Of a DNA stretch of 11,057 nt, positions 1 through 10,888 are shown one piece after another. The stretch is from the NCBI GenBank assembly GCA_041489155.1, contig JBGPQP010000021.1:1-11057 (forward strand), in the 5' to 3' direction. The first letter of the stretch is position 1, and every line of letters begins with the position of its first letter. This DNA comes from Candidatus Aenigmatarchaeota archaeon. GTDB lineage: Archaea > Aenigmatarchaeota > Aenigmatarchaeia > QMZP01 > QMZT01. The position numbers and the translations under genes were made by a program. Below the pieces are notes generated by a model. That model was not told the origin of the DNA, ran no database searches, and saw only the letters and a program-made list of their open reading frames with translations.

Positions 1-2407
1 CCGCCGCCTTCACCATGTCGTTGTTGTGGGAGATGATTATGAACTGGACGTTCTTCGACTGCTTCTTCACCATTTCGATGACGCGCATGGTGTTCGGCTT
101 GTCGAGCGGCGCGTCGACCTCGTCAAGCACGTAGAATGGCGAGGGCTTGTATTTCTGTATCGTGAAAAGGAACGCGAGCGCTGTCAGCGCCTTCTCCCCG
201 CCTGACATGGAATCTATGTAAAGCAGTTTCTTGCCAGGCGGCTGCGCAGATATGAGCAGGCCGGAGTTTATGTCATTCGCGGCCTCGAGGCCGAGATCCG
301 CTTCGCCGCTGGTCAGCTCCCTGTAAATCTCCTTGAAGAGTCTGGACATCTCGCTCATCGTCACCGTGAAGACTTCGCGCTTCCTGCCCTCTATTTCCGT
401 GATGCTTTTTACAATGCTTTCCTTCTCCTTCGCGATCTGCGTGACCCTTTCCCTGAACTCCTCGAACTCCTCGTGCAGGACTCCGAATTCCTCTATCGCC
501 TTCATGTTCACCGGGCCGAGCGCGGCGATCTTCGCGAGCGCTTCCCTTTCGGCGTCTTTCAGGCCCTGCATGCCCTTCTTCTGGTACACCTCGCGGTCGA
601 CGGACGGAAGGGATTCCCATTTCTTCTTGTTCTCCTCCCACTGCTGCTGGAGGTTGTCGAAATTCGCTTCATACCTCGCGCGGTTTATCTTGAGCCTGTT
701 CAGCTCTTCCTGCAGGTTTGCCTTGCGGTCGAAGCTCTGCCTCCTCGCCTCGCTGAGCTTCGCGAGCTCATCCCTTATCTTTCCCATCCTCGCCTCGAAG
801 TCGAAGCTCTTCGTGTCCTTTATGCTTTTGTTGAAGCCCGCGAGCTGCTTCTCAACCTCCTCGATCTCCATCGCGAGTATGCGGTTCTCTTCTTCGAGCT
901 TCTTTATGTCCTTCGCGAACCTCGCGGTCTCGGCGTCGGCGTTCGGCGCCTTCTTCATGTAATAACCTCCGAAAACAGCGCCCGACGTCTCAAAGAGATC
1001 GCCTTCCAGCGTAACCATTCTCACACGATTTTTGTCCGCAATTCTCTTCGCCTTGTCGATGTCGTTGACGCATGCCGTCGCGCCTAGTACGTATTCGACG
1101 ACAGGAGTGAATTCCCTTTCATGATGCACGATATCGGAAAGCCAGCCTAACGTGCCGTCAGGCAGCTGGCCCTTCGAAGACGAGCGGATCTTGTCGAGCG
1201 GCAGGAACCTCGCCCTTCCGATCTTGTTGTCCTTGAGGTAGCGGATGCAGTAAATAGCAGTGTTCAGGTCTTCGACGACGATGTCGTTCATGTGCGAGCC
1301 GGCGGCGATGTCCGTCGCGATCCTGTATTGCTCCGGGATGACTACCAGATCCCTGAAGAAGCCGCGCACGCCCTTCATCTGCAGGACAGGCTTGAGATTT
1401 TCAGCTCCTCCCCTGCCGAGCATGCCCAGGTTCCTGATCATCTGGTTGAGGCGTTCGATCTCCCTCTCGTTCGAGGAGATGAGGTTCTCCTTGCTTTCTG
1501 CCGCGGCCTCGAGCTTCGATATCTTCTTCGTTATCTCGATCTGGTCCTTCCTCATGACTTCCTTCATGAGATTCTCGAGCTCCCTGTCCTTCGCCTCCAT
1601 GCCCGCGTCCGTTTTCCTTATCTCCCCGTCGAGCTTCGTCAGCTCTGTTTCCTTGTCCTTTATTTCCCCTCCGATTCCGCCGATGTTCTTCTCGGCTGAT
1701 GAGAATTCCTTGAACGTGATTGTCGCCTTCACCATGTCGAGCTCGGTCTGGAGATTGCGATATTCGACAGCGGAATCTCTGTCCTTCTGCAGCTTCGTGA
1801 CTATCTGCTCCTTCTGCTCGAGGATTATCTCCGCCTCCTTCACCTTCTCCTCGACCTTCTCCAGTTCTTTCAGCGCCTTCTCCCGCTTCTCGTCGTATTC
1901 GGTTATGCCGGCGATCTCGTCTATTATCTCCCTGCGCTCGAGCGGGTTCATGTCTATCACTTTCGACACGTCGCCCTGCTTTATGATGTTGTGGCCGCCG
2001 GGATTAAGGCGCGCCTGCATGAAGGTGTCGAGAATCTGCTGGCGCGTCGTGATTCTGCCGTTCATCCTGTAAGAAGAAACGCCTTCCTTGTTGAGAGTTC
2101 GCGTGACTATTACGTTCCCGTCATCGACCGGCAGCATCTTTTTCTCGTTGGAGAAGAAGAGGTTTATCTTGGCGGAGTCCGCCGCGGTCTTGTTCCTGCT
2201 GCCGTGGAATATCAGGTCCTGCGCCTTCTTCGCGCGCAGATGCCTCGATGACGCGCGGCCGAGAACGAAAGCTATCGAGTCTCCTACGTTCGACTTGCCG
2301 CAGCCGTTCGGCCCCGTCACGACAATGAAGTTCGACGGGAACACGATGGTGGTCGGCCGCTTGAAGGACTTGAAGCCCTGCAGCACGACCTTTTCCAGCC
2401 TTACCAT
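1..2407 (-). CDS. smc: Chromosome partition protein Smc, short-armed; 3' end lies beyond the left edge (802 codons in window)
   Basis: Manual translation from ATG at 2407 is open to position 2. It shows MVRLEKVVLQGFKSF, Walker A GPNGCGKS (K38), Q-loop IIKQGDV (Q144) and IIDEIAGI. The hinge runs GVRGFFRDLV..GRARFLPL..RMVTLEGDLFETSGAVFGG, with an intact GX6GX3GG motif. The C-terminal part has LGPVNMKAIEEF, signature MSGGEK (S735), Walker B/D-loop FYVLDEVDAPLD (E763) and H-loop QFIIISH. Confidence 0.97.
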   Translation of the reverse strand, partial: MVRLEKVVLQGFKSFKRPTTIVFPSNFIVVTGPNGCGKSNVGDSIAFVLGRASSRHLRAKKAQDLIFHGSRNKTAADSAKINLFFSNEKKMLPVDDGNVIVTRTLNKEGVSSYRMNGRITTRQQILDTFMQARLNPGGHNIIKQGDVSKVIDMNPLERREIIDEIAGITEYDEKREKALKELEKVEEKVKEAEIILEQKEQIVTKLQKDRDSAVEYRNLQTELDMVKATITFKEFSSAEKNIGGIGGEIKDKETELTKLDGEIRKTDAGMEAKDRELENLMKEVMRKDQIEITKKISKLEAAAESKENLISSNEREIERLNQMIRNLGMLGRGGAENLKPVLQMKGVRGFFRDLVVIPEQYRIATDIAAGSHMNDIVVEDLNTAIYCIRYLKDNKIGRARFLPLDKIRSSSKGQLPDGTLGWLSDIVHHEREFTPVVEYVLGATACVNDIDKAKRIADKNRVRMVTLEGDLFETSGAVFGGYYMKKAPNADAETARFAKDIKKLEEENRILAMEIEEVEKQLAGFNKSIKDTKSFDFEARMGKIRDELAKLSEARRQSFDRKANLQEELNRLKINRARYEANFDNLQQQWEENKKKWESLPSVDREVYQKKGMQGLKDAEREALAKIAALGPVNMKAIEEFGVLHEEFEEFRERVTQIAKEKESIVKSITEIEGRKREVFTVTMSEMSRLFKEIYRELTSGEADLGLEAANDINSGLLISAQPPGKKLLYIDSMSGGEKALTALAFLFTIQKYKPSPFYVLDEVDAPLDKPNTMRVIEMVKKQSKNVQFIIISHNNDMVKAA

Positions 2408-2491: not shown

Positions 2492-2881
2492 ATGAAGGCT
2501 TTGCTCGACACGAATTTCCTGATGATACCCGGCGAGTTCAGGGTTGACATCTTCTCCGGGCTGCTGAACCTGGGCTACACCGAGATATTCACGCTTGACA
2601 TCGTCGTCCGCGAGCTGGAGAAGTTCTCGACGAAAGGCGGCAAGACAGCGAAGGCCGCGCGCATAGCGCTGGAGCTGGTGAGGAATTGCGAAGTCTCGAT
2701 AATCCAAACGAAAGGCGACATAACGGAAGCGGACGCGGAGATCCTGCGCCTGGCGAGGAACAAGGGCTGCACCATCTGCACGCAGGACAGGGAGCTGCTG
2801 CGGAGAGCGAAAGCCGCCGGCATGCGCGTGATAACGATGCGCCAGCAGAAATATCTCGCCGAGTCGGGTGGCGATTTCTAG
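2492..2881 (+). CDS. PIN-domain ribonuclease, archaeal Fcf1/Utp24-like family
   Basis: 129 aa with LLDTNFLMIP at the N-terminus, VVRELEK, ADAEIL and CTQDRELLRR. The acidic PIN residues and the C-terminal VITMRQQKYL fit the archaeal Fcf1-like group. Confidence 0.88.
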   Translation: MKALLDTNFLMIPGEFRVDIFSGLLNLGYTEIFTLDIVVRELEKFSTKGGKTAKAARIALELVRNCEVSIIQTKGDITEADAEILRLARNKGCTICTQDRELLRRAKAAGMRVITMRQQKYLAESGGDF

Positions 2882-2896: not shown

Positions 2897-3565
2897 ATGA
2901 AAAAAGCCGGCGGCAGAAAATTCAAGCTGGTGGTCTTCGACCTTGACGGCACGGTAATCGACGGCACAGCCTCGATATGGAAAACGTTCCATTCTTTCCT
3001 CGGCCTTCTCGAGCATCCCAGAAGACTCGAGCTGCGGCGAAAATTTTTTGCAGGCAAGATAAGCTACAGGCAGTGGGCTTTCGATGACCTCGATCTCATC
3101 AAGGAGCACGGCGCGGACCAGGGCAAGATGATGAAAGCGATGGAAGGCCTGAGACTCATGAAAGGCGCTCGCGAGACGCTGGCGGCGCTGAAGGCGAAGG
3201 GCTGCGTGCTCGGCATAATATCCGGCAGCATGGACATCGTGCTGGAGAGGCTGCTGCCCGACTACAAGAAAATTTTCAGGTACGTTTACATCCCGCACCT
3301 GGCCTTCGACGCGCAGGGCAGGATCAAGGGCATAGAGGTGGGGCACGACTTCTCGGACAAGAGCAAGGCGCTCATGGAAATCTGCATCAGGGAGGGCATA
3401 GACTTGGAGCAGTGCGTCTTCGTGGGCGACAACTACAACGACATACAGGCAGCGAGGATCGCCGGCCTGTCGATCGCCTTCAACTCCGGCTCAGAAAAAC
3501 TTAACGCAGTCGCGGATGTCGTGATAGAGAAGAAGGATTTGCGGGAAATCCTTAAGCACCTATGA
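2897..3565 (+). CDS. HAD-superfamily phosphatase, phosphoserine phosphatase (SerB)-like; substrate not certain
   Basis: Motif I VFDLDGT, motif II IISGS, motif III K (DKSKAL), motif IV FVGDNYND. SD-like AGGTG at 2887-2891. Starts 15 nt after the PIN stop, so probably co-transcribed. Confidence 0.88.
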   Translation: MKKAGGRKFKLVVFDLDGTVIDGTASIWKTFHSFLGLLEHPRRLELRRKFFAGKISYRQWAFDDLDLIKEHGADQGKMMKAMEGLRLMKGARETLAALKAKGCVLGIISGSMDIVLERLLPDYKKIFRYVYIPHLAFDAQGRIKGIEVGHDFSDKSKALMEICIREGIDLEQCVFVGDNYNDIQAARIAGLSIAFNSGSEKLNAVADVVIEKKDLREILKHL

Positions 3566-4011: not shown

Positions 4012-5259
4012 CTACATCCACAGGAACTGGAGCAGGACATGCGCGACCAGCACGGCGATGACGGAGAAGGGAAGGCTTATTTTGAGGTAGTCTTTCAGCT
4101 TTACCTTGTAGCCGCGCTTTTCAAGCATGCCGCACGCAAACACATTCGCCGTCGCCCCGACCGGCGTTATGTTGCCTCCTATGCCCGTCCCGATGAGCAT
4201 GCCGAAAATGAAGGGGAACGGGCTGACGCCCATGAGACTCGCCAGCTGGTTGCAGACGGGTATCATAAGAACAGTGAAGGGGACGTTGTCTATGAACGAT
4301 GAAGCCGCGACGGAAATCCAAATTATTATTGCGAGCATGACGGACGCGTTGGTTATGCCGAGGCCGCCCATGCCGTTCACGAAGTCGGAAAGCAGGCCGG
4401 TGATTTCCAGCGAGCCGATCACTACAAAAATCCCTGTTATGAATAAGAACGAGTTCCAGTCGAATTCCTTCATCATCTTTTTGGCTTTCCTACCGCCGAA
4501 CAGCAGGGCGACGATCCCCACCACAACTCCGACGATGCCCGGTGTTACGCCGAAATAAGAGCTCACCACCAGGGCCAGGACGCCCGCCACGAAAATGACC
4601 GATGGTATGTAATCGACCTTTATCTTCTCGCGGGTGATTTTAACGGGCTTGTTCATGTGCCTGAACGTGTAAAGCAGGCTCAGCAGCGCGGCAACGACGC
4701 CGAAAAACGTCACGACGCCGAGGCTCAGCCTGCCTTGGAACCAGTAGAAATCGAAGAACTTCATGCCCGTCGATATCGCCATTACCAGCGCTGGCGGGTC
4801 GGCTATCATGGTCATAGTCGTCACGACGTTCGAGCTTATCGCGATCGCGATCATGTAGGGGAAAAGGCTGGACTTCAGCTTCCTCGCCATCTCTATCGCT
4901 ATGGGCGCCATCATGAGGACCGTCCCGACGTTTTCCATGAAAGCAGAGAGAGAAGCTGTTATTATGCAGATGGCCAGGAGGGCATATTTCTCCTTTTTCA
5001 CCTTGCTGACCACCTTGTCGGCTATAAGCGTCGGCATCTTGCTCTCCATGAAAATCATCGAGACCATCATGAAGCCCCAGTAGATGCCAAGGACGTCCCA
5101 TTTTATCGACGTGAACAGCGCGGCCTGCGGCGAGACTATGCCCAAAAGAATCAGCAGCCCTGCCGAGGCAAGGGAAATGTATGCCAGCTTCACTTTTCTG
5201 GAAATGGCGAGGGCGTAGCAGGCTATGAAAATGACGAGCGCGATGATTTGCTCTATCAT
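4012..5259 (-). CDS. ArsB/NhaD-family (ion transporter superfamily) permease; possible Na+/H+ antiporter or anion transporter
   Basis: 415 aa with many hydrophobic segments. Repeat-domain motifs SAFMENVGTVL, TMIADPPAL, SSFIDNVPF and GGNITPVGATANV are typical of ArsB/NhaD/P-protein permeases. Confidence 0.85.
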   Translation of the reverse strand: MIEQIIALVIFIACYALAISRKVKLAYISLASAGLLILLGIVSPQAALFTSIKWDVLGIYWGFMMVSMIFMESKMPTLIADKVVSKVKKEKYALLAICIITASLSAFMENVGTVLMMAPIAIEMARKLKSSLFPYMIAIAISSNVVTTMTMIADPPALVMAISTGMKFFDFYWFQGRLSLGVVTFFGVVAALLSLLYTFRHMNKPVKITREKIKVDYIPSVIFVAGVLALVVSSYFGVTPGIVGVVVGIVALLFGGRKAKKMMKEFDWNSFLFITGIFVVIGSLEITGLLSDFVNGMGGLGITNASVMLAIIIWISVAASSFIDNVPFTVLMIPVCNQLASLMGVSPFPFIFGMLIGTGIGGNITPVGATANVFACGMLEKRGYKVKLKDYLKISLPFSVIAVLVAHVLLQFLWM

Positions 5260-5395: not shown

Positions 5396-7363
5396 GTGGT
5401 AATTCTGCAACTGGAATATTTTTCGTTCTTCTCGGGCGTTATTGCAATACTTTTTGCGGCAGCGCTTTCCTTTTACGTTCTCAGAAAGCCGGCTGGCAAC
5501 CATAAGATGAAGGAGCTCAGCAGGGTCATACACAAAGGCGCCCTGACCTACCTTAACAAGCAGTACAAGTTCCTGGTAGGCTTCGTTGCAGCGATGGCAC
5601 TCGTGCTCTACTTAATCATCGGGAAGGAGATAGCGCTGGCCTTCATCATCGGCGCCTTCTTCTCCGCCCTGACCGGGAACATAGGCATGCGCATCTCCAC
5701 GCTGGCGAATGCGAGGACCGTCGAAGGCTGCAGGAAGAATATCAACTCCGGCCTCAAGATCGCGTTTTCGTCCGGTTCCGTGATGGGCCTATCCGTCGTA
5801 GGGATTGGCCTGCTCGGTGTCTCGGTGCTTTACTCAATTTTTGGCGATCCCAGCATAATCTACGGCTTCGGCTTCGGAGCGAGCTCCATCGCGCTTTTCG
5901 CCAGGGTCGGCGGCGGCATCTACACGAAAGGCGCCGATGTGGGAGCGGACTTGGTCGGCAAAGTCGAGAAGGGAATTCCAGAAGACGACCCCAGGAACCC
6001 GGCTGTAATCGCTGACCTTGTCGGCGACAACGTCGGCGACGTAGCCGGCATGGGAGCCGACCTCTTCGAGAGCTACGTCAACTCGATAATCGCTGCGATG
6101 GCGATAGGCGTTGTCTTCTCGTCATTCCAGGGTGCTGTGCTGCCCATGATGCTGGCTTCCTTGGGGATTCTTGCATCCATAGCGGGAATGTTTTTCGTGA
6201 AGGCAAAGGGCGAGAACGCGCAGTCAGCGCTCAACCGCGGCATGATAGCAGCCTCGGCGATAATGTTCATCGCGTCTTACCCGCTGATATATTTCTTCGC
6301 CGGGCCGGCGCACATGGGCCTGTGGTATGCGACAGTCTCCGGCCTCGTCGCGGGCGTGGTGATAGGCCTCGCGACCGAATACTACACCTCAGCCGGCAGG
6401 GGTCCTGTCGATTCCATCGCGAAGGCGTCGCAGACAGGCGCGGGCACGACGATAATCACTGGCCTCGCGGTCGGCATGAGGAGCACCTTAATTCCCGTGC
6501 TGACAGTGGGGGCTGCGATAATAATTTCCTACCAGTTCGGCGGCCTGTATGGCATCGCCATCGCCGCCGTGGGCATGCTTTCCACTCTCGGCATAATGCT
6601 TGCCACAGAATGCTACGGCCCTGTAGTCGACAACGCGGCCGGCATTTCGGAGATGGCCGGTCTTGGCGATGAGGTGAGGAAGAGGACTGACACTCTTGAT
6701 TCGATAGGCAACACGACGGCGGCGATAGGAAAAGGCTTCGCCATCGCGTCCGCCGCACTGACCGCTCTCGCGTTGTTCGTCGTCTACGGCCAGACCTTCG
6801 GCCTGTTCTCGATGTCCATCACCGATCCTTACGTTGTCACCGGCCTTTTCATAGGCGCTCTGCTGCCTTTCATCTTCTGTTCCTTCGCGATGAACGCGGT
6901 GGGCAAGGCGGCATTCCGCATAATCATGGAAGTGCGCAGGCAGTTCAAGGAGATAAAGGGTCTCATGGCAGGCAAGGCGAAACCCGACTACAACAAGTGC
7001 ATCGCGATTTCGACAGAAGCCGCGATGAAGGAAATGATAATCCCTGGCTTCATCGCCATCATCGCCCCGCTGTTCGTCGGCTTCGTGCTTGGCCCGGCCG
7101 CCTTGGGCGGCCTGCTGGCAGGGGCGACGGCGACGGGCTTCCTGCTCGCTTTGATGATGGCCAACGCCGGCGGCGCATGGGACAATGCGAAGAAGTACAT
7201 CGCTGCCGGGCATCTCGGCGGGAAAGGAAGCGAGACCCACAAGGCGGCTGTCATCGGCGACACGGTCGGCGACCCGTTCAAGGACACCGCAGGGCCTTCG
7301 CTGAACATCCTGATCAAACTGATGTCGATTGTCGCGCTGGTCTTTGCTCCGCTTTTCCTGTGA
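5396..7363 (+). CDS. hppA: Membrane-integral pyrophosphatase, K+-dependent type, probably Na+-translocating (start codon uncertain)
   Basis: [41 protein letters not shown] and [15 protein letters not shown]+-dependence signature GNTTAA at 6707-6724. Helix 6 reads DLFESYVNS and helix 16 reads GPSLNILIK. Confidence 0.95.
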
Positions 7364-7482: not shown

Positions 7483-9531
7483 ATGTTCCCTGAGCCCATG
7501 ATGGTCGTGTTCGCCATAGGCATTTTCTCTCTTGTTGTCGCTGGCTATTTCACGAGGGACGTTCTCAGAAGGGACAAGGGCAGCCATGAGATGCAGAAGA
7601 TAGCCAAGGCGATACAAAAAGGATCGAACGCCTTCATCAAGAGGCAGTACAAGACCATCGCCATCTTTTCCATCATTTTGATGGCTCTCATATCAGGAGT
7701 CTATTTTCTCGTCGGCAAGCCTGATACCGCATTTTACACCGGCGTCTCGTTCATTTTCGGCGCTTTCTGCTCTGCGCTGGCAGGCATCATAGGCATGACC
7801 ATCGCCGTGCGCGCGAACCTCAGGATGGCCGCGACCGTCAAAAAGAGTTCGGGCGAGGCGGTCAAGGTCGCGATGAGGGGCGGAGCGGTCTCCGGCCTTG
7901 TAATAGTCACGATGTCGCTGCTCGGCGTCGCACTGATATATTATGTTCTGGGAGCGAACCCGCAGGAAACGCCCTTCACGATCGTCGGCTACGGCTTCGG
8001 CGCGAGCTTCGTCGCGCTTTTCGCGCAGCTGGGCGGAGGCATCTATACCAAGGGTGCGGACATAGGCGCTGACCTGGTTGGAAAGTTGGAAGCAGGCATC
8101 CCCGAGGACGACCCGAGAAACCCCGCAGTCATCGCGGATCTCGTCGGCGACAACGTAGGCGACTGCGCGGGAAGGGGAGCGGATCTTTTTGAATCGACTG
8201 CCGCGGAGAACATAGGAGCCATGATACTCGGCGTAGCGCTGTTCCCGTATTTCGGCCTGAACGGCATTCTCTTCCCCCTGGTTGCAAGGGCATTCGGCCT
8301 TATAGCGAGCATAGTCGGCATTTTCTCGGTGAGACCTAAAGACGCTGACGACCCGATGAAGGCGCTGAACAAGGGCTATTACGTCACACTCATACTGTCA
8401 GCGATATTCTTTTACTTCGTCACCATGTGGATGCTTAACAACGTGTGGTTCTTTTACGCAGGCCTTACCGGCATGGTGATGTCCATAGCGTTCATATACA
8501 TAACGCAATATTATACGGAGCACAAGTACAGGCCAGTGCAGCACATCGCGCGCTCATCCATCACCGGCCATGCCACCAACATCATAAGCGGCTTTGCCAT
8601 GGCGCTGGAATGCACCGCGCTTCCCGTCATCGCGATAGGCGCCTCCCTGATATTTTCATTCATGTGCGGCGTCTGGAGCGGCATTCCCAACGGCGGTTTG
8701 TACGGGACGGCGATTGCGACGATGGGCATGCTCGCGACGTGCGCGTACATCCTTTCGATGGACACGTTCGGCCCGATTGCCGACAATGCGGGCGGCATCA
8801 TCGAGATGTCCGGCGCTCCCACGGAGATCAGGAGCAAGATGGACAGGCTCGACGCAGTAGGCAACACGACCAAGGCGCTGACGAAGGGATATGCCATCGG
8901 CTCAGCCGCTCTTGCTGCGTTCCTGCTGTTCTCGGCCTACATGGACGACGTGGCGAAACTAACTGGCAGGGCGTTCACAGTCGTCAACATAGCGAATGTC
9001 ACAGTCTTCGTCGGCGCGATGCTCGGTGCGATGCTGATATTCCTGTTCTCATCCTTAGCGATGAACGCGGTAAGCAAGACCTCCCAGAAAATTATCGAAG
9101 AAGTCCGCCGCCAGTTCCAGGACAAGAGCATCCTTGCCGGCACGAAAGAGCCGGACTACGCGAAGTGCGTTGACATCACGACCAAGGGAGCGTTGAGGAA
9201 CATGGTGCTTCCGGGTCTCGTAGCCGTCGTCTTCCCGGTCGCGGTCGGCGCGCTGCTCAAATACGAGGCAATGGCAGCCTTCCTCATGGTCGGGACCATC
9301 GCAGGCATACTGATGGCGATTGTCATGAACAACGGCGGAGGCGCCTGGGACAACGCCAAGAAATTAATAGAATCAGGCCATCACGGGGGCAAGGGAAGCG
9401 ACGCGCACAAGGCCGCGATCGTCGGCGATACTGTAGGCGATCCCTTCAAGGACACGGTCGGGCCATCGCTCCACGTCTTAATCAAGCTGCTCTCGACCAT
9501 TACGCTGGTCCTCGCCCCTCTGTTCATATGA
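7483..9531 (+). CDS. hppA: Membrane-integral pyrophosphatase, K+-independent H+-translocating (AVP2/type II-like)
   Basis: Same catalytic motifs as the first copy. K+-independence signature GNTTKALTKG at 8860 onward. [24 protein letters not shown] and GPSLHVLIK resemble the AVP2-like clade. Strong SD upstream. Confidence 0.95.
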   Translation: MFPEPMMVVFAIGIFSLVVAGYFTRDVLRRDKGSHEMQKIAKAIQKGSNAFIKRQYKTIAIFSIILMALISGVYFLVGKPDTAFYTGVSFIFGAFCSALAGIIGMTIAVRANLRMAATVKKSSGEAVKVAMRGGAVSGLVIVTMSLLGVALIYYVLGANPQETPFTIVGYGFGASFVALFAQLGGGIYTKGADIGADLVGKLEAGIPEDDPRNPAVIADLVGDNVGDCAGRGADLFESTAAENIGAMILGVALFPYFGLNGILFPLVARAFGLIASIVGIFSVRPKDADDPMKALNKGYYVTLILSAIFFYFVTMWMLNNVWFFYAGLTGMVMSIAFIYITQYYTEHKYRPVQHIARSSITGHATNIISGFAMALECTALPVIAIGASLIFSFMCGVWSGIPNGGLYGTAIATMGMLATCAYILSMDTFGPIADNAGGIIEMSGAPTEIRSKMDRLDAVGNTTKALTKGYAIGSAALAAFLLFSAYMDDVAKLTGRAFTVVNIANVTVFVGAMLGAMLIFLFSSLAMNAVSKTSQKIIEEVRRQFQDKSILAGTKEPDYAKCVDITTKGALRNMVLPGLVAVVFPVAVGALLKYEAMAAFLMVGTIAGILMAIVMNNGGGAWDNAKKLIESGHHGGKGSDAHKAAIVGDTVGDPFKDTVGPSLHVLIKLLSTITLVLAPLFI

Positions 9532-9880: not shown

Positions 9881-10888
9881 ATGCTTGTCAACGGTAAGCC
9901 TTACCGCACCGTCTGGTTCGAGAAAAACAAGATCAGGATGATAAACCAGCTGCTTCTGCCTCACAAATTCGAGATCGCCAGCCTCGGCAGCGTCGAGGAG
10001 GTCGCGAAGGCGATAAAGACCATGGTCGTGCGCGGAGCGCCGGCGCTCGGCGCGACGGGCGCGTATGGCATGGCCCTCGCCGTCCTCAGGGGCAACAAAC
10101 CCGAACAAGCTGCCGAAAACCTCCGCAACACCAGACCGACCGCGCAGGACCTTTTCAGGGGTATAGATTACGTTATCGAGAGAACCAGCGGCAGCGGCAA
10201 AGATATGAAGGCTGCCGCCCTTAAAGCGGCTGAGGAGTATGCCAACAAATCAGCCGAGGCGTGCAAGATGATAGGCCAGATAGGCGCCGAGCTGATACGC
10301 GACCATGCCGTCATCCTCACCCACTGCAACGCAGGCTGGCTGGCCTGCGTGGACTGGGGGACGGCGCTCTCGCCCGTATACTTCGCCAAGCACCAGGGCA
10401 AGAACGTTTTCGTCTTCGCCGACGAGACGCGGCCGCGTCTACAAGGAGCGAAACTCACTTCATGGGAGCTTATGAACGAAGGGATAGAGCACGCGGTCAT
10501 CGCCGACAACGCCGCGGGGCATTACATGAGCGAGAGGGAAATCGACTTGGTGATAGTCGGTGCCGACCGCATCGCCAGGAACGGCGACTTCGCCAACAAG
10601 ATAGGCACGTATGAAAAAGCGGTCGTCGCGTACGAGAACAAGATTCCCTTCTATGTCGCTGCGCCGACGACGACAATCGATCCGTCGCGCGATAGCGGCA
10701 GCGACATCCCCATAGAAGAGCGCGAGGAGGACGAGGTCCATTTCATCGGGAACCAGCGCATCACGCCGAAGGGCGCGAAGGCGCGAAATCCGGCGTTCGA
10801 CGTCACGCCGGCGAAATTCATCTCAGGCATCATAACGGAAAAGGGTATCTTCAGGCCTGACGACATATCCCGCATATTCAGAAAATAA
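9881..10888 (+). CDS. mtnA: S-methyl-5-thioribose-1-phosphate isomerase (eIF-2B alpha-like family)
   Basis: NQLLLP, MVVRGAPALG, RPTA, LTHCNAG, DETRP, GADRI, NKIGTY and NPAFDVTP. Confidence 0.9.
   Translation: MLVNGKPYRTVWFEKNKIRMINQLLLPHKFEIASLGSVEEVAKAIKTMVVRGAPALGATGAYGMALAVLRGNKPEQAAENLRNTRPTAQDLFRGIDYVIERTSGSGKDMKAAALKAAEEYANKSAEACKMIGQIGAELIRDHAVILTHCNAGWLACVDWGTALSPVYFAKHQGKNVFVFADETRPRLQGAKLTSWELMNEGIEHAVIADNAAGHYMSEREIDLVIVGADRIARNGDFANKIGTYEKAVVAYENKIPFYVAAPTTTIDPSRDSGSDIPIEEREEDEVHFIGNQRITPKGAKARNPAFDVTPAKFISGIITEKGIFRPDDISRIFRK

What the first reader, a model, noticed from the sequence alone, without database searches (positions are those of the whole stretch)
1..2407. Naturally miniaturised Smc: intact heads and hinge, each arm strand about 175-180 aa shorter
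Seen: an uninterrupted frame with K38 (Walker A), hinge GG at 480-481, signature S735 and Walker B E763. Known: the B. subtilis Smc equivalents are K37, G662-G663, S1090 and E1118 in 1186 aa. The offset is therefore ~182 aa up to the hinge end and ~173 aa after it, ~355 aa in total, predicting ~830 aa. The near-symmetric loss keeps the antiparallel coiled coil in register, which argues against decay or an assembly deletion. Each strand is short by about two units of the ~91-residue periodicity reported for functional Smc arm lengths (recalled, not checked). Inference: a functional condensin with arms about half the usual length, relevant to the minimal ring size needed for DNA loading and loop extrusion. 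The gene is absent from the supplied ORF track.
Basis: partly seen in the sequence, partly recalled or inferred. Interest (0 to 1): 0.78.

Follow-up and report, generated by a model that had tools for sequence, protein, structure and literature searches.

The report
Half-armed SMC condensin of DPANN archaea
This is a genuine, intact chromosome-folding SMC ATPase whose coiled-coil arms are half the usual length, a build shared by whole lineages of tiny DPANN archaea, so it is a natural test of how much arm an SMC motor needs rather than an error or a one-off.

Summary
Window 2..2407 (minus strand) is an uninterrupted 802-codon frame cut only by the contig end. An identical complete protein is 839 aa.

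It is an Smc orthologue that lacks the hinge-side half of both arm strands: median 174 aa per strand against 339.5 aa in its closest full-length relatives. It is neither decay nor mis-assembly:
- 193 of 201 sampled genomes of its phylum have a match, and the listed full-query matches span about 2.4-2.5 kb.
- Nanohaloarchaeota share the build.
- An independent assembly spans both arms without a difference.
- ScpA and ScpB are present, and the only other SMC-like gene in the genome is Rad50.

A single origin of the short form is not rejected (AU p = 0.43).

Novelty is limited. Buermann et al. 2017 noted a possible minor mode at 163 aa, and their table holds 4 of 3,337 sequences with arms under 200 aa. 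This scan also reached the same reading earlier on two other genomes. I found no paper that describes the lineage-wide distribution. The "two 91-residue periods" idea fits only roughly (165.5 aa, or 1.8 periods). Function is inferred, not shown.

The parts
2..2407 (-). smc gene, codons 1-802 of 839; the last 37 codons and the stop lie beyond the contig end
   Evidence: TIGR02168 579.9 bits (cut-off 567.35) and TIGR02169 701.7 bits (cut-off 729.4) for the full 839-aa protein
1904..2407 (-). N-terminal half of the ATPase head (residues 1-168), with Walker A GPNGCGKS at nt 2291-2314 and Q144
   Evidence: K38 and Q144 invariant in 46 sequences; AF2 strands and helices 3-166
1373..1903 (-). N-terminal arm strand (residues 169-345; 177 aa between the boundary residues)
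   Evidence: AF2 helices 168-284 and 287-328; hydrophobic period 3.55; family length 172/178/180 as min/median/max
965..1372 (-). Hinge dimerisation domain (residues 346-481), with invariant G346, G476, G480 and G481
   Evidence: Pfam SMC_hinge 3.9e-27; invariant columns; AF2 mixed alpha/beta fold 339-489 with pLDDT near 90
443..964 (-). C-terminal arm strand (residues 482-655; 174 aa), including the joint region with the invariant G631 and N634 of LGPVN
   Evidence: AF2 helices 490-527, 535-598, 602-610, 613-630 and 637-699
2..442 (-). C-terminal half of the ATPase head (residues 656-802, cut by the contig end): signature MSGGE at nt 194-208, Walker B and D-loop at nt 101-136, H794

Best explanation
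The gene encodes the organism's only Smc, the ATPase core of an Smc-ScpA-ScpB condensin. It has complete heads, a head-proximal coiled coil with the joint, and a hinge. The hinge-side half of both arm strands is absent, so the hinge sits on an arm of about 160-175 residues per strand. That is roughly 24 nm instead of about 47-49 nm. This is the normal, selected state of the Aenigmatarchaeota lineage and of Nanohaloarchaeota. My trees are compatible with a single ancestral shortening. By homology it should dimerise at the hinge, bind ScpA at the neck and cap of the heads, and use ATP-driven head engagement to load onto and move along DNA. Its lumen and reach would be about half as large. Shown here: the sequence architecture, its conservation, the partner genes and the assembly integrity. 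Inferred: ATPase activity, kleisin binding, DNA entrapment and loop extrusion.
For: Family and motifs. Pfam finds SMC_N and SMC_hinge. The complete 839-aa protein scores above the curated cut-off of TIGR02168 (579.9 against 567.35) and reaches 1.6e-210 on TIGR02169. Walker A K38, Q144, S735, D762, E763, D765, H794 and the hinge glycines G346, G476, G480 and G481 are invariant in 46 sequences that go down to 47% identity.

Conservation of the short length:
- 114 of the 120 best homologues are 804-859 aa. The other 6 are 3 fragments and 3 intein carriers.
- 193 of 201 sampled genomes of the phylum have a match at E <= 1e-30, including 92 of 92 high-quality genomes. Listed full-query matches span about 2.4-2.5 kb.
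- 110 of the 120 best homologues of a Nanohaloarchaea member are 827-876 aa. They include proteins named from Ca. Nanohalobium constans, Ca. Nanohalococcus occultus and Ca. Nanosalina.

Where the loss lies. I aligned 133 short proteins to a 1169-position profile built from 95 full-length representatives. Positions 1-320 and 961-1160 are occupied at about 0.9-1.0. Positions 341-480 are occupied at 0.06 or less, and positions 741-860 mostly at 0.33 or less. TIGR02169 gives the same picture: aa 4-326 match profile 2-327, aa 343 resumes at profile 520, and aa 539-802 match profile 876-1144.

Arm lengths with one set of boundaries:
- Short set (146 of 147 usable): N strand median 178 (IQR 177-178), C strand median 170 (IQR 169-173), mean of strands 174.0 (SD 4.0).
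- Long set (101 of 101): 347, 330 and 339.5 (SD 13).

Structure. The AF2 model has mean pLDDT 82.2, long helices at 168-328 and 490-699, and a hinge between them. Its best crystal-structure fit is 5xei, the P. yayanosii Smc head with coiled coil and joint, at TM 0.73 on the target's length. At sequence level, query 3-281 and 615-823 align collinearly with 5xei.

Partners and paralogues. ScpA lies on C11 (233-aa ORF, Pfam 5.7e-15) and ScpB on C3 (242-aa ORF, 5.2e-32). The only other SMC-like gene is a 780-aa Rad50 with a zinc hook.

Assembly. A 3,799-base contig from another study matches window 1-2378 with 0 differences and 0 gaps and runs 1,421 bases past the window end. No joints were reported.
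Against: No experiment or expression data exists for this protein; no RNA holder was listed. In B. subtilis the shortest engineered arms reported as functional were 253-267 aa, so arms near 175 aa have no experimental precedent for function. TIGR02169, the archaeal-type equivalog, is narrowly missed (701.7 against 729.4). scpA and scpB are not beside smc in this genome, and binding was not tested. The genome is 89.65% complete, so a second smc cannot be strictly excluded. The exact deletion breakpoints are uncertain. HMMER aligns the query's N coil to both the head-proximal and the hinge-proximal coil of long relatives, and on the C strand the occupancy is patchy between profile positions 680 and 880.
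Confidence: 0.85

Rival explanations
1. Assembly artefact or decaying gene: the arms were collapsed by mis-assembly of repetitive coiled-coil DNA, or the gene is a deletion remnant on its way to loss.
For: The gene is truncated at a contig end, and the genome is a 39-contig draft.
Against: The same architecture occurs in 193 of 201 sampled genomes of the phylum and in hundreds of database proteins from separate sources. A contig from another study spans window 1-2378 with 0 differences and no joints. The frame is uninterrupted, with invariant catalytic and hinge residues. The N-strand length IQR of 177-178 indicates constraint rather than decay.
Confidence: 0.01
2. It is a distinct SMC-superfamily paralogue rather than the condensin Smc orthologue, comparable to Rad50, the archaea-specific SMC-related protein or another SMC-like ATPase, and it has a different job.
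For: It scores under the TIGR02169 cut-off. The arm length is closer to that of some SMC-like proteins than to canonical Smc.
Against: TIGR02169 scores 1.6e-210 and TIGR02168 is above its cut-off, against ASRP at 1.2e-23 and Rad50 at 9.7e-21. It has a true SMC hinge with the conserved glycines. The best PDB relatives are Pyrococcus Smc heads and hinge. It is the only Smc-like gene apart from a separate Rad50. ScpA and ScpB are present. The shortfall in score is what losing about 330 profile positions should cause.
Confidence: 0.04
3. It is a true Smc orthologue with a reduced or altered mechanism. With half-length arms and no mid-arm segment, it may only bridge or entrap DNA locally, or help resolve sister chromosomes in a roughly 1-Mb genome, without processive loop extrusion.
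For: Engineered B. subtilis arms of improper length hydrolyse ATP but fail to leave their loading sites. No engineered arm under 253 aa is reported as functional. The missing segment covers the region where a central discontinuity, or elbow, is predicted in SMC arms (Buermann 2018 preprint, passages). The host genomes are only about 0.4-1.9 Mb.
Against: The very narrow arm-length distribution (SD 4.0) is what Buermann 2017 link to arm-dependent force transmission, not to a passive linker. All ATPase-cycle residues and the joint are retained. Nothing here measures activity either way.
Confidence: 0.1

Closest known systems
Canonical prokaryotic Smc of Smc-ScpAB (NCBIfam TIGR02168 and TIGR02169; Pyrococcus Smc in PDB 5xei, 5xns, 4i99, 4rsj; B. 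subtilis Smc)
   Same: The ATPase head with all motifs, the joint, the hinge with conserved glycines, an antiparallel intramolecular coiled coil, and ScpA and ScpB partners in the genome.
   Different: About 165 residues are missing from each arm strand on the hinge side: 174 against 339.5 aa. Total length is 839 aa against about 1100-1200 aa. The estimated arm is about 24 nm against the 47-49 nm stated in the abstracts listed. The estimate uses a 161-residue helix at about 0.148 nm per residue, a textbook value.
Engineered Mini-Smc of B. subtilis (Buermann et al. 2017, PMC5344682; sections 8-11 and Table S1 parts 1 and 23 read)
   Same: The same design principle: a hinge with little hinge-proximal coil set on a shortened head-proximal arm. 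Length appears constrained to discrete classes.
   Different: This one is natural and fixed in whole lineages. Its arm (about 174 aa by my boundaries, about 160 by the layout of their Table S1 row with bounds 4-168/313-481/656-796) is shorter than the shortest engineered construct reported as functional, 253-267 aa.
Natural short-arm Smc classes in Buermann 2017 (major mode 238 aa, possible minor mode 163 aa)
   Same: It falls in or next to the 163-aa minor mode. The tail of their sheet of 3,337 prokaryotic rows, sorted by arm length, holds 4 arms under 200 aa (193, 173, 160, 159). One has the same domain bounds as this protein, and one has an N head starting at residue 574, as in the intein-bearing relatives.
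   Different: The parts of that paper I read give neither the organisms, nor the position of the loss, nor the lineage-wide distribution. The GenBank ids could not be resolved here. Three 943-963-aa representatives among this protein's relatives have arms of 232-244 aa, which is the 238 class, not this one.
Rad50 and the archaea-specific SMC-related protein (NF003034, NF045487)
   Same: An ABC-type head split by a shorter antiparallel coiled coil.
   Different: Their models score only 9.7e-21 and 1.2e-23. This protein has an SMC hinge, not a zinc hook. The genome's own Rad50 is a separate 780-aa gene with a hook.

Membership tests
Smc (condensin Smc of Smc-ScpAB) | ABC-type head with Walker A, Q-loop, signature motif, Walker B, D-loop and H-loop | tested here: met
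   K38, Q144, S735/G737/E738, D762/E763, D765 and H794 are present and invariant in 46 family members.
Smc (condensin Smc of Smc-ScpAB) | SMC hinge domain with conserved glycines between the two arm strands | tested here: met
   PF06470 at 345-457, 3.9e-27. G346, G476, G480 and G481 are invariant. PDB hinge hits include 4rsj, 3nwc, 5h69 and 1gxl.
Smc (condensin Smc of Smc-ScpAB) | Two coiled-coil strands of matched length that form one antiparallel arm, with a head-proximal joint | tested here: met
   Strands are 177 and 174 aa. AF2 gives long helices with paired breaks. Hydrophobic period is 3.55 and 3.59. Fit to 5xei, which includes the joint, is TM 0.73.
Smc (condensin Smc of Smc-ScpAB) | Score above the curated equivalog cut-off | tested here: inconclusive
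   Full 839-aa protein: TIGR02168 scores 579.9 against a cut-off of 567.35 (passes), and TIGR02169 scores 701.7 against 729.4 (misses). About 330 profile positions are absent, which lowers the attainable score.
Smc (condensin Smc of Smc-ScpAB) | Arm of about 340 residues per strand (about 47-50 nm) | tested here: not met
   Median is 174.0 aa against 339.5 aa in 101 full-length relatives. This is typical of the family but not a defining feature, because the literature already records other length classes.
Smc (condensin Smc of Smc-ScpAB) | Kleisin ScpA and KITE ScpB encoded in the genome | tested here: met
   PF02616 on C11 (28.8 and 26.8 bits; ORF of 233 aa at 5.7e-15) and PF04079 on C3 (112.1 bits; ORF of 242 aa).
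Smc (condensin Smc of Smc-ScpAB) | Physical Smc-ScpA-ScpB complex, ATP-dependent DNA loading or translocation | not testable with these tools
   No complex prediction was run because a textbook pair would pass by likeness to solved structures. Biochemistry is needed.
Rad50 / SbcC | CxxC zinc hook at the arm apex instead of a hinge | tested here: not met
   There is no hook, and the hinge domain is present. The hook-bearing Rad50 is a different gene on C15.

The most novel reading that the evidence does not exclude
An arm of about 174 residues is a third discrete 'allowed' Smc arm length, roughly two coiled-coil superhelical periods below the canonical one. It appears fixed since a single ancient shortening in at least two DPANN phyla, Aenigmatarchaeota and Nanohaloarchaeota. 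The motor works without the hinge-side half of the arm, including the region where the mid-arm elbow is predicted. If so, DNA loading and loop extrusion need neither a 50-nm lumen nor elbow folding, and nature reached a length class that engineering in B. subtilis did not. Nanohaloarchaeota genomes named from co-cultured organisms carry this form (that they are co-cultured is recalled, not checked by a call), so the idea is testable.
Probability: 0.35. Interest if true: 0.75.

Novelty: new variant of a known kind. Interest (0 to 1): 0.5.

Why it matters
How SMC motors use their long arms is an open mechanistic question. Current models differ on whether arm length, a mid-arm elbow or the lumen size sets the step. 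Resizing experiments in B. subtilis found function only in discrete length windows and none below about 253 residues. Here, whole archaeal lineages with genomes of about 0.4-1.9 Mb keep a single Smc with arms of about 174 residues, and the N-strand length is almost invariant (IQR 177-178). These proteins are ready-made material for ATPase, EM and single-molecule loop-extrusion assays and for arm-swap chimeras. The practical value lies in pointing specialists to these lineages, not in a new kind of protein.

Tried and rejected
- **Independent convergence on the same short length.** A FastTree tree on head and hinge columns only (497 columns; 32 short and 101 long rows; the 5 intermediate-length proteins, the fragments and the intein carriers were left out) put 31 of 32 short proteins in one clade (support 99). 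The Naiadarchaeales-labelled P0155 fell elsewhere with support 72. Its deletion boundaries match the others. An IQ-TREE quick tree used 64 rows: 26 short after dropping 6 close relatives, the 12 rows next to P0155, and 26 of the other 89 long rows picked at random. It needed 2 changes, but starred branches forced only 1. The AU test did not reject one clade (p = 0.428, delta lnL 2.82). The group was named after the first tree had been seen. Convergence is therefore not supported.\n- **Exact breakpoints.** Pairwise HMMER aligns the query coil to both halves of the long arms, so only profile-level placement is reported.\n- **Expression.** No RNA holder was listed for the locus, so nothing can be said about expression.\n- **Read-level coverage.** Only Logan contigs were available, so depth says nothing. 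Runs X3, X4 and X5 cover the gene in pieces only.\n- **Literature.** Five searches: Smc with arm length, DPANN or Nanohaloarchaea terms; Aenigmatarchaeota with SMC: 2 histone papers; elbow terms. None yielded a description of a lineage-wide half-arm Smc. In Yoshinaga and Inagaki 2021 I saw passages only; DPANN is listed among carriers of canonical archaeal SMC, and 'shorter' occurs 0 times. In Cavalier-Smith 2020, the held first 300,000 characters have 2 SMC mentions, neither about length. The 2023 review PMC10512200 has no 'arm length' term.\n- **Not seen.** Figure 5 of the Buermann 2018 preprint and mmc1.pdf (Figure S1) of Buermann 2017. These may say which sequences are the 'naturally occurring short variants'.\n- **Not run.** Complex prediction was not used.\n- **Job failure.** The first structure job failed and was repeated later.
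Full report
**Observation.** The window is bases 1-11057 of contig C21 in a 1.13-Mb, 39-contig genome that is 89.65% complete. An ATG-started frame on the minus strand runs from 2407 to base 2 without a stop, giving 802 residues, and is cut by the contig end. The database holds a complete 839-aa protein (P0002, on a 131-kb contig) that begins with these 802 residues exactly.

**Family.** Pfam gives SMC_N (2.3e-65) and SMC_hinge (345-457, 3.9e-27). The full protein scores 579.9 bits on TIGR02168 (cut-off 567.35) and 701.7 on TIGR02169 (cut-off 729.4). ASRP and Rad50 models reach only 1.2e-23 and 9.7e-21.

**It is real and conserved.**
- Of the 120 best homologues, 114 are 804-859 aa. Three are fragments and three are about 1380-aa intein carriers. 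Named ones are mostly Aenigmatarchaeota.
- In a sample of 201 genomes of the window's phylum, 193 have a match at E <= 1e-30, including 92 of 92 high-quality genomes. The listed full-query matches span about 2.4-2.5 kb.
- A named-genome scan kept 79 loci. The 7 Aenigmatarchaeota or uncultured-archaeon loci at 36-50% identity have short matches; the six complete ones span about 2.4-2.5 kb, and they include Ca. Aenigmarchaeum subterraneum SCGC AAA011-O16. Methanogens, Halobacteria, Bathyarchaeia, Nitrososphaerota and cyanobacteria span about 3.5 kb.
- A 3,799-base contig from a different study matches window 1-2378 with 0 differences and 0 gaps and continues 1,421 bases beyond the window. No joints were reported.

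**What is missing.**
- Against the 1165-position TIGR02169 profile, residues 4-326 match positions 2-327, residue 343 resumes at position 520, and residues 539-802 match 876-1144.
- Against 1.84 billion representatives, short proteins match in one stretch down to about 34% identity. Proteins of 1070-1220 aa match in three stretches, with the N-terminal and the C-terminal roughly 325 residues collinear with the query.
- I built a 1169-position profile from 95 full-length representatives and aligned 133 short proteins to it. Positions 1-320 and 961-1160 are occupied at about 0.9-1.0. Positions 341-480 are at 0.06 or less, and 741-860 mostly at 0.33 or less.
- So the hinge-side half of each strand is absent, while the head-proximal half with the joint is kept. 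Exact breakpoints are uncertain because coiled-coil sequence aligns ambiguously.

**Arm lengths.** I used one set of boundaries throughout: head N end to invariant G346, and invariant G481 to residue 656.

| Set | Usable | N strand median (IQR) | C strand median (IQR) | Mean of strands (SD) |
|---|---|---|---|---|
| Short | 146 of 147 | 178 (177-178) | 170 (169-173) | 174.0 (4.0) |
| Long | 101 of 101 | 347 | 330 | 339.5 (13) |

P0002 has 177 and 174. The short set contains close relatives, so the rows are not independent. In a 46-sequence alignment, identity to the query is 0.65, 0.60 and 0.64 in the N head, hinge and C head, against 0.46 and 0.41 in the arms. The arms nevertheless keep their length and a hydrophobic period of 3.55-3.59.

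**Structure.** AlphaFold2 on that alignment gives mean pLDDT 82.2:
- N strand: helices 168-284 and 287-328.
- Hinge: 339-489.
- C strand: helices 490-527, 535-598, 602-610, 613-630 and 637-699.
- Paired breaks lie about 40 residues from the hinge, at 285-286 and 528-534.
- Several C-strand breaks surround the invariant LGPVN, where the joint lies.

The best crystal fit is 5xei, the P. yayanosii Smc head with coiled coil and joint (TM 0.73 on the target's length). At sequence level, query 3-281 and 615-823 align collinearly with it. A 161-residue helix at the textbook rise of about 0.148 nm per residue gives about 24 nm. The abstracts listed state 47-49 nm for B. subtilis Smc.

**Partners and paralogues.** ScpA lies on C11 (233-aa ORF, PF02616 5.7e-15) and ScpB on C3 (242-aa ORF, PF04079 5.2e-32). 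Neither is next to smc. The only other SMC-like gene is a 780-aa Rad50 with a zinc hook. No second smc was found in this incomplete assembly.

**Breadth and origin.**
- Short representatives carry Nanohaloarchaea, Naiadarchaeales, Aenigmarchaeota and, for one cluster, Heimdallarchaeota labels.
- Of the 120 best homologues of the Nanohaloarchaea member, 110 are 827-876 aa, 8 are intein carriers and 2 are shorter fragments. They include proteins named from Ca. Nanohalobium constans, Ca. Nanohalococcus occultus and Ca. Nanosalina.
- On head and hinge columns only, 31 of 32 short proteins form one clade (support 99), with P0155 apart at support 72.
- The AU test does not reject a single clade (p = 0.428).

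**Known work.**
- Buermann et al. [quoted passage not shown] They also found a 91-aa periodicity of function.
- In the passages I read, engineered arms are reported as functional only at 253-267 aa, down to about 321 aa from the wild-type 344, at 330-373 aa and at 407-435 aa.
- Their Table S1 is sorted by arm length. Its tail lists 4 of 3,337 arms under 200 aa: 193, 173, 160 and 159. The 160-aa row has bounds 4-168/313-481/656-796, which is this protein's layout. The 173-aa row has an N head starting at residue 574, like the intein carriers. I could not resolve the ids to organisms.
- The Buermann 2018 preprint mentions 'naturally occurring short variants' without defining them in the text I could read.
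- The searches listed under Tried and rejected found no account of the lineage-wide distribution.
- Two earlier notes of this scan (e1-4925556 and e1-5304747) reached the same reading on other genomes. My tests agree with them independently.

**Periodicity.** The loss per strand is 165.5 aa by my boundaries, or 1.8 periods of 91 aa. Buermann's modes give 178, or 1.96 periods. The idea fits roughly, but it cannot be settled to better than about 15 aa.

**Verdict.** This is a real, complete, conserved Smc with half-length arms. Function is inferred from conservation and the partner genes, not shown. It is a new variant of a known kind: the length class was hinted at in print, and its value is as a natural test case for SMC arm mechanics.

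Noticed in passing
window 5396-7363 (+) and 7483-9531 (+): Two tandem full-length membrane H+-pyrophosphatase genes (655 and 682 aa; PF03030 at 3.8e-265 and 2.4e-256) sit side by side, which is notable in a genome of about 1.1 Mb.
   Followed up: no
relatives: P0067, P0089, P0099; frames of 1382-1398 aa in G188, G198, G085, G048, G180, G176, G191; 8 Nanohaloarchaea proteins: Many short-arm smc genes carry an intein of about 540 aa with a LAGLIDADG endonuclease (PF14528, PF14890), inserted right at the Walker A loop. Matches to the query restart at residue 37 or 38. Two representatives of 951-976 aa look like mini-intein forms.
   Followed up: partly
G000:C15 (locus L093:386-2728, minus strand): The genome's Rad50 is 780 aa with a zinc hook at 378-417. 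That is about 90-115 residues shorter than the NCBIfam archaeal Rad50 profiles (872-895 positions), so its arms may be shortened too.
   Followed up: no
window 2492-2881 (+): A PIN_9-domain gene (129 aa, 2.9e-24) is transcribed divergently from smc across an 84-bp spacer. A HAD hydrolase (2897-3565), a CitMHS transporter (4012-5259, minus strand) and an IF-2B-family gene (9881-10888) follow it.
   Followed up: no
proteins P0155, and P0196 with cluster member P0273: P0155, an 833-aa short Smc labelled Naiadarchaeales, sits apart from the main short clade with weak support. The cluster of P0196, an 842-aa protein inside the short clade, includes a member (P0273) labelled Heimdallarchaeota, which suggests mis-binning or gene transfer.
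   Followed up: partly
proteins P0148, P0167, P0173: Three representatives of 943-963 aa among the closest relatives have arms of 232-244 aa by the same boundaries, which is the published 238-aa class. All three length classes therefore occur among fairly close relatives.
   Followed up: no
window 85-168: Contig depth spikes, and many short pieces with loose ends pile up, at about 101-142. This is the Walker B and D-loop coding stretch, which evidently recruits contigs of unrelated ABC ATPases from the metagenomes.
   Followed up: no
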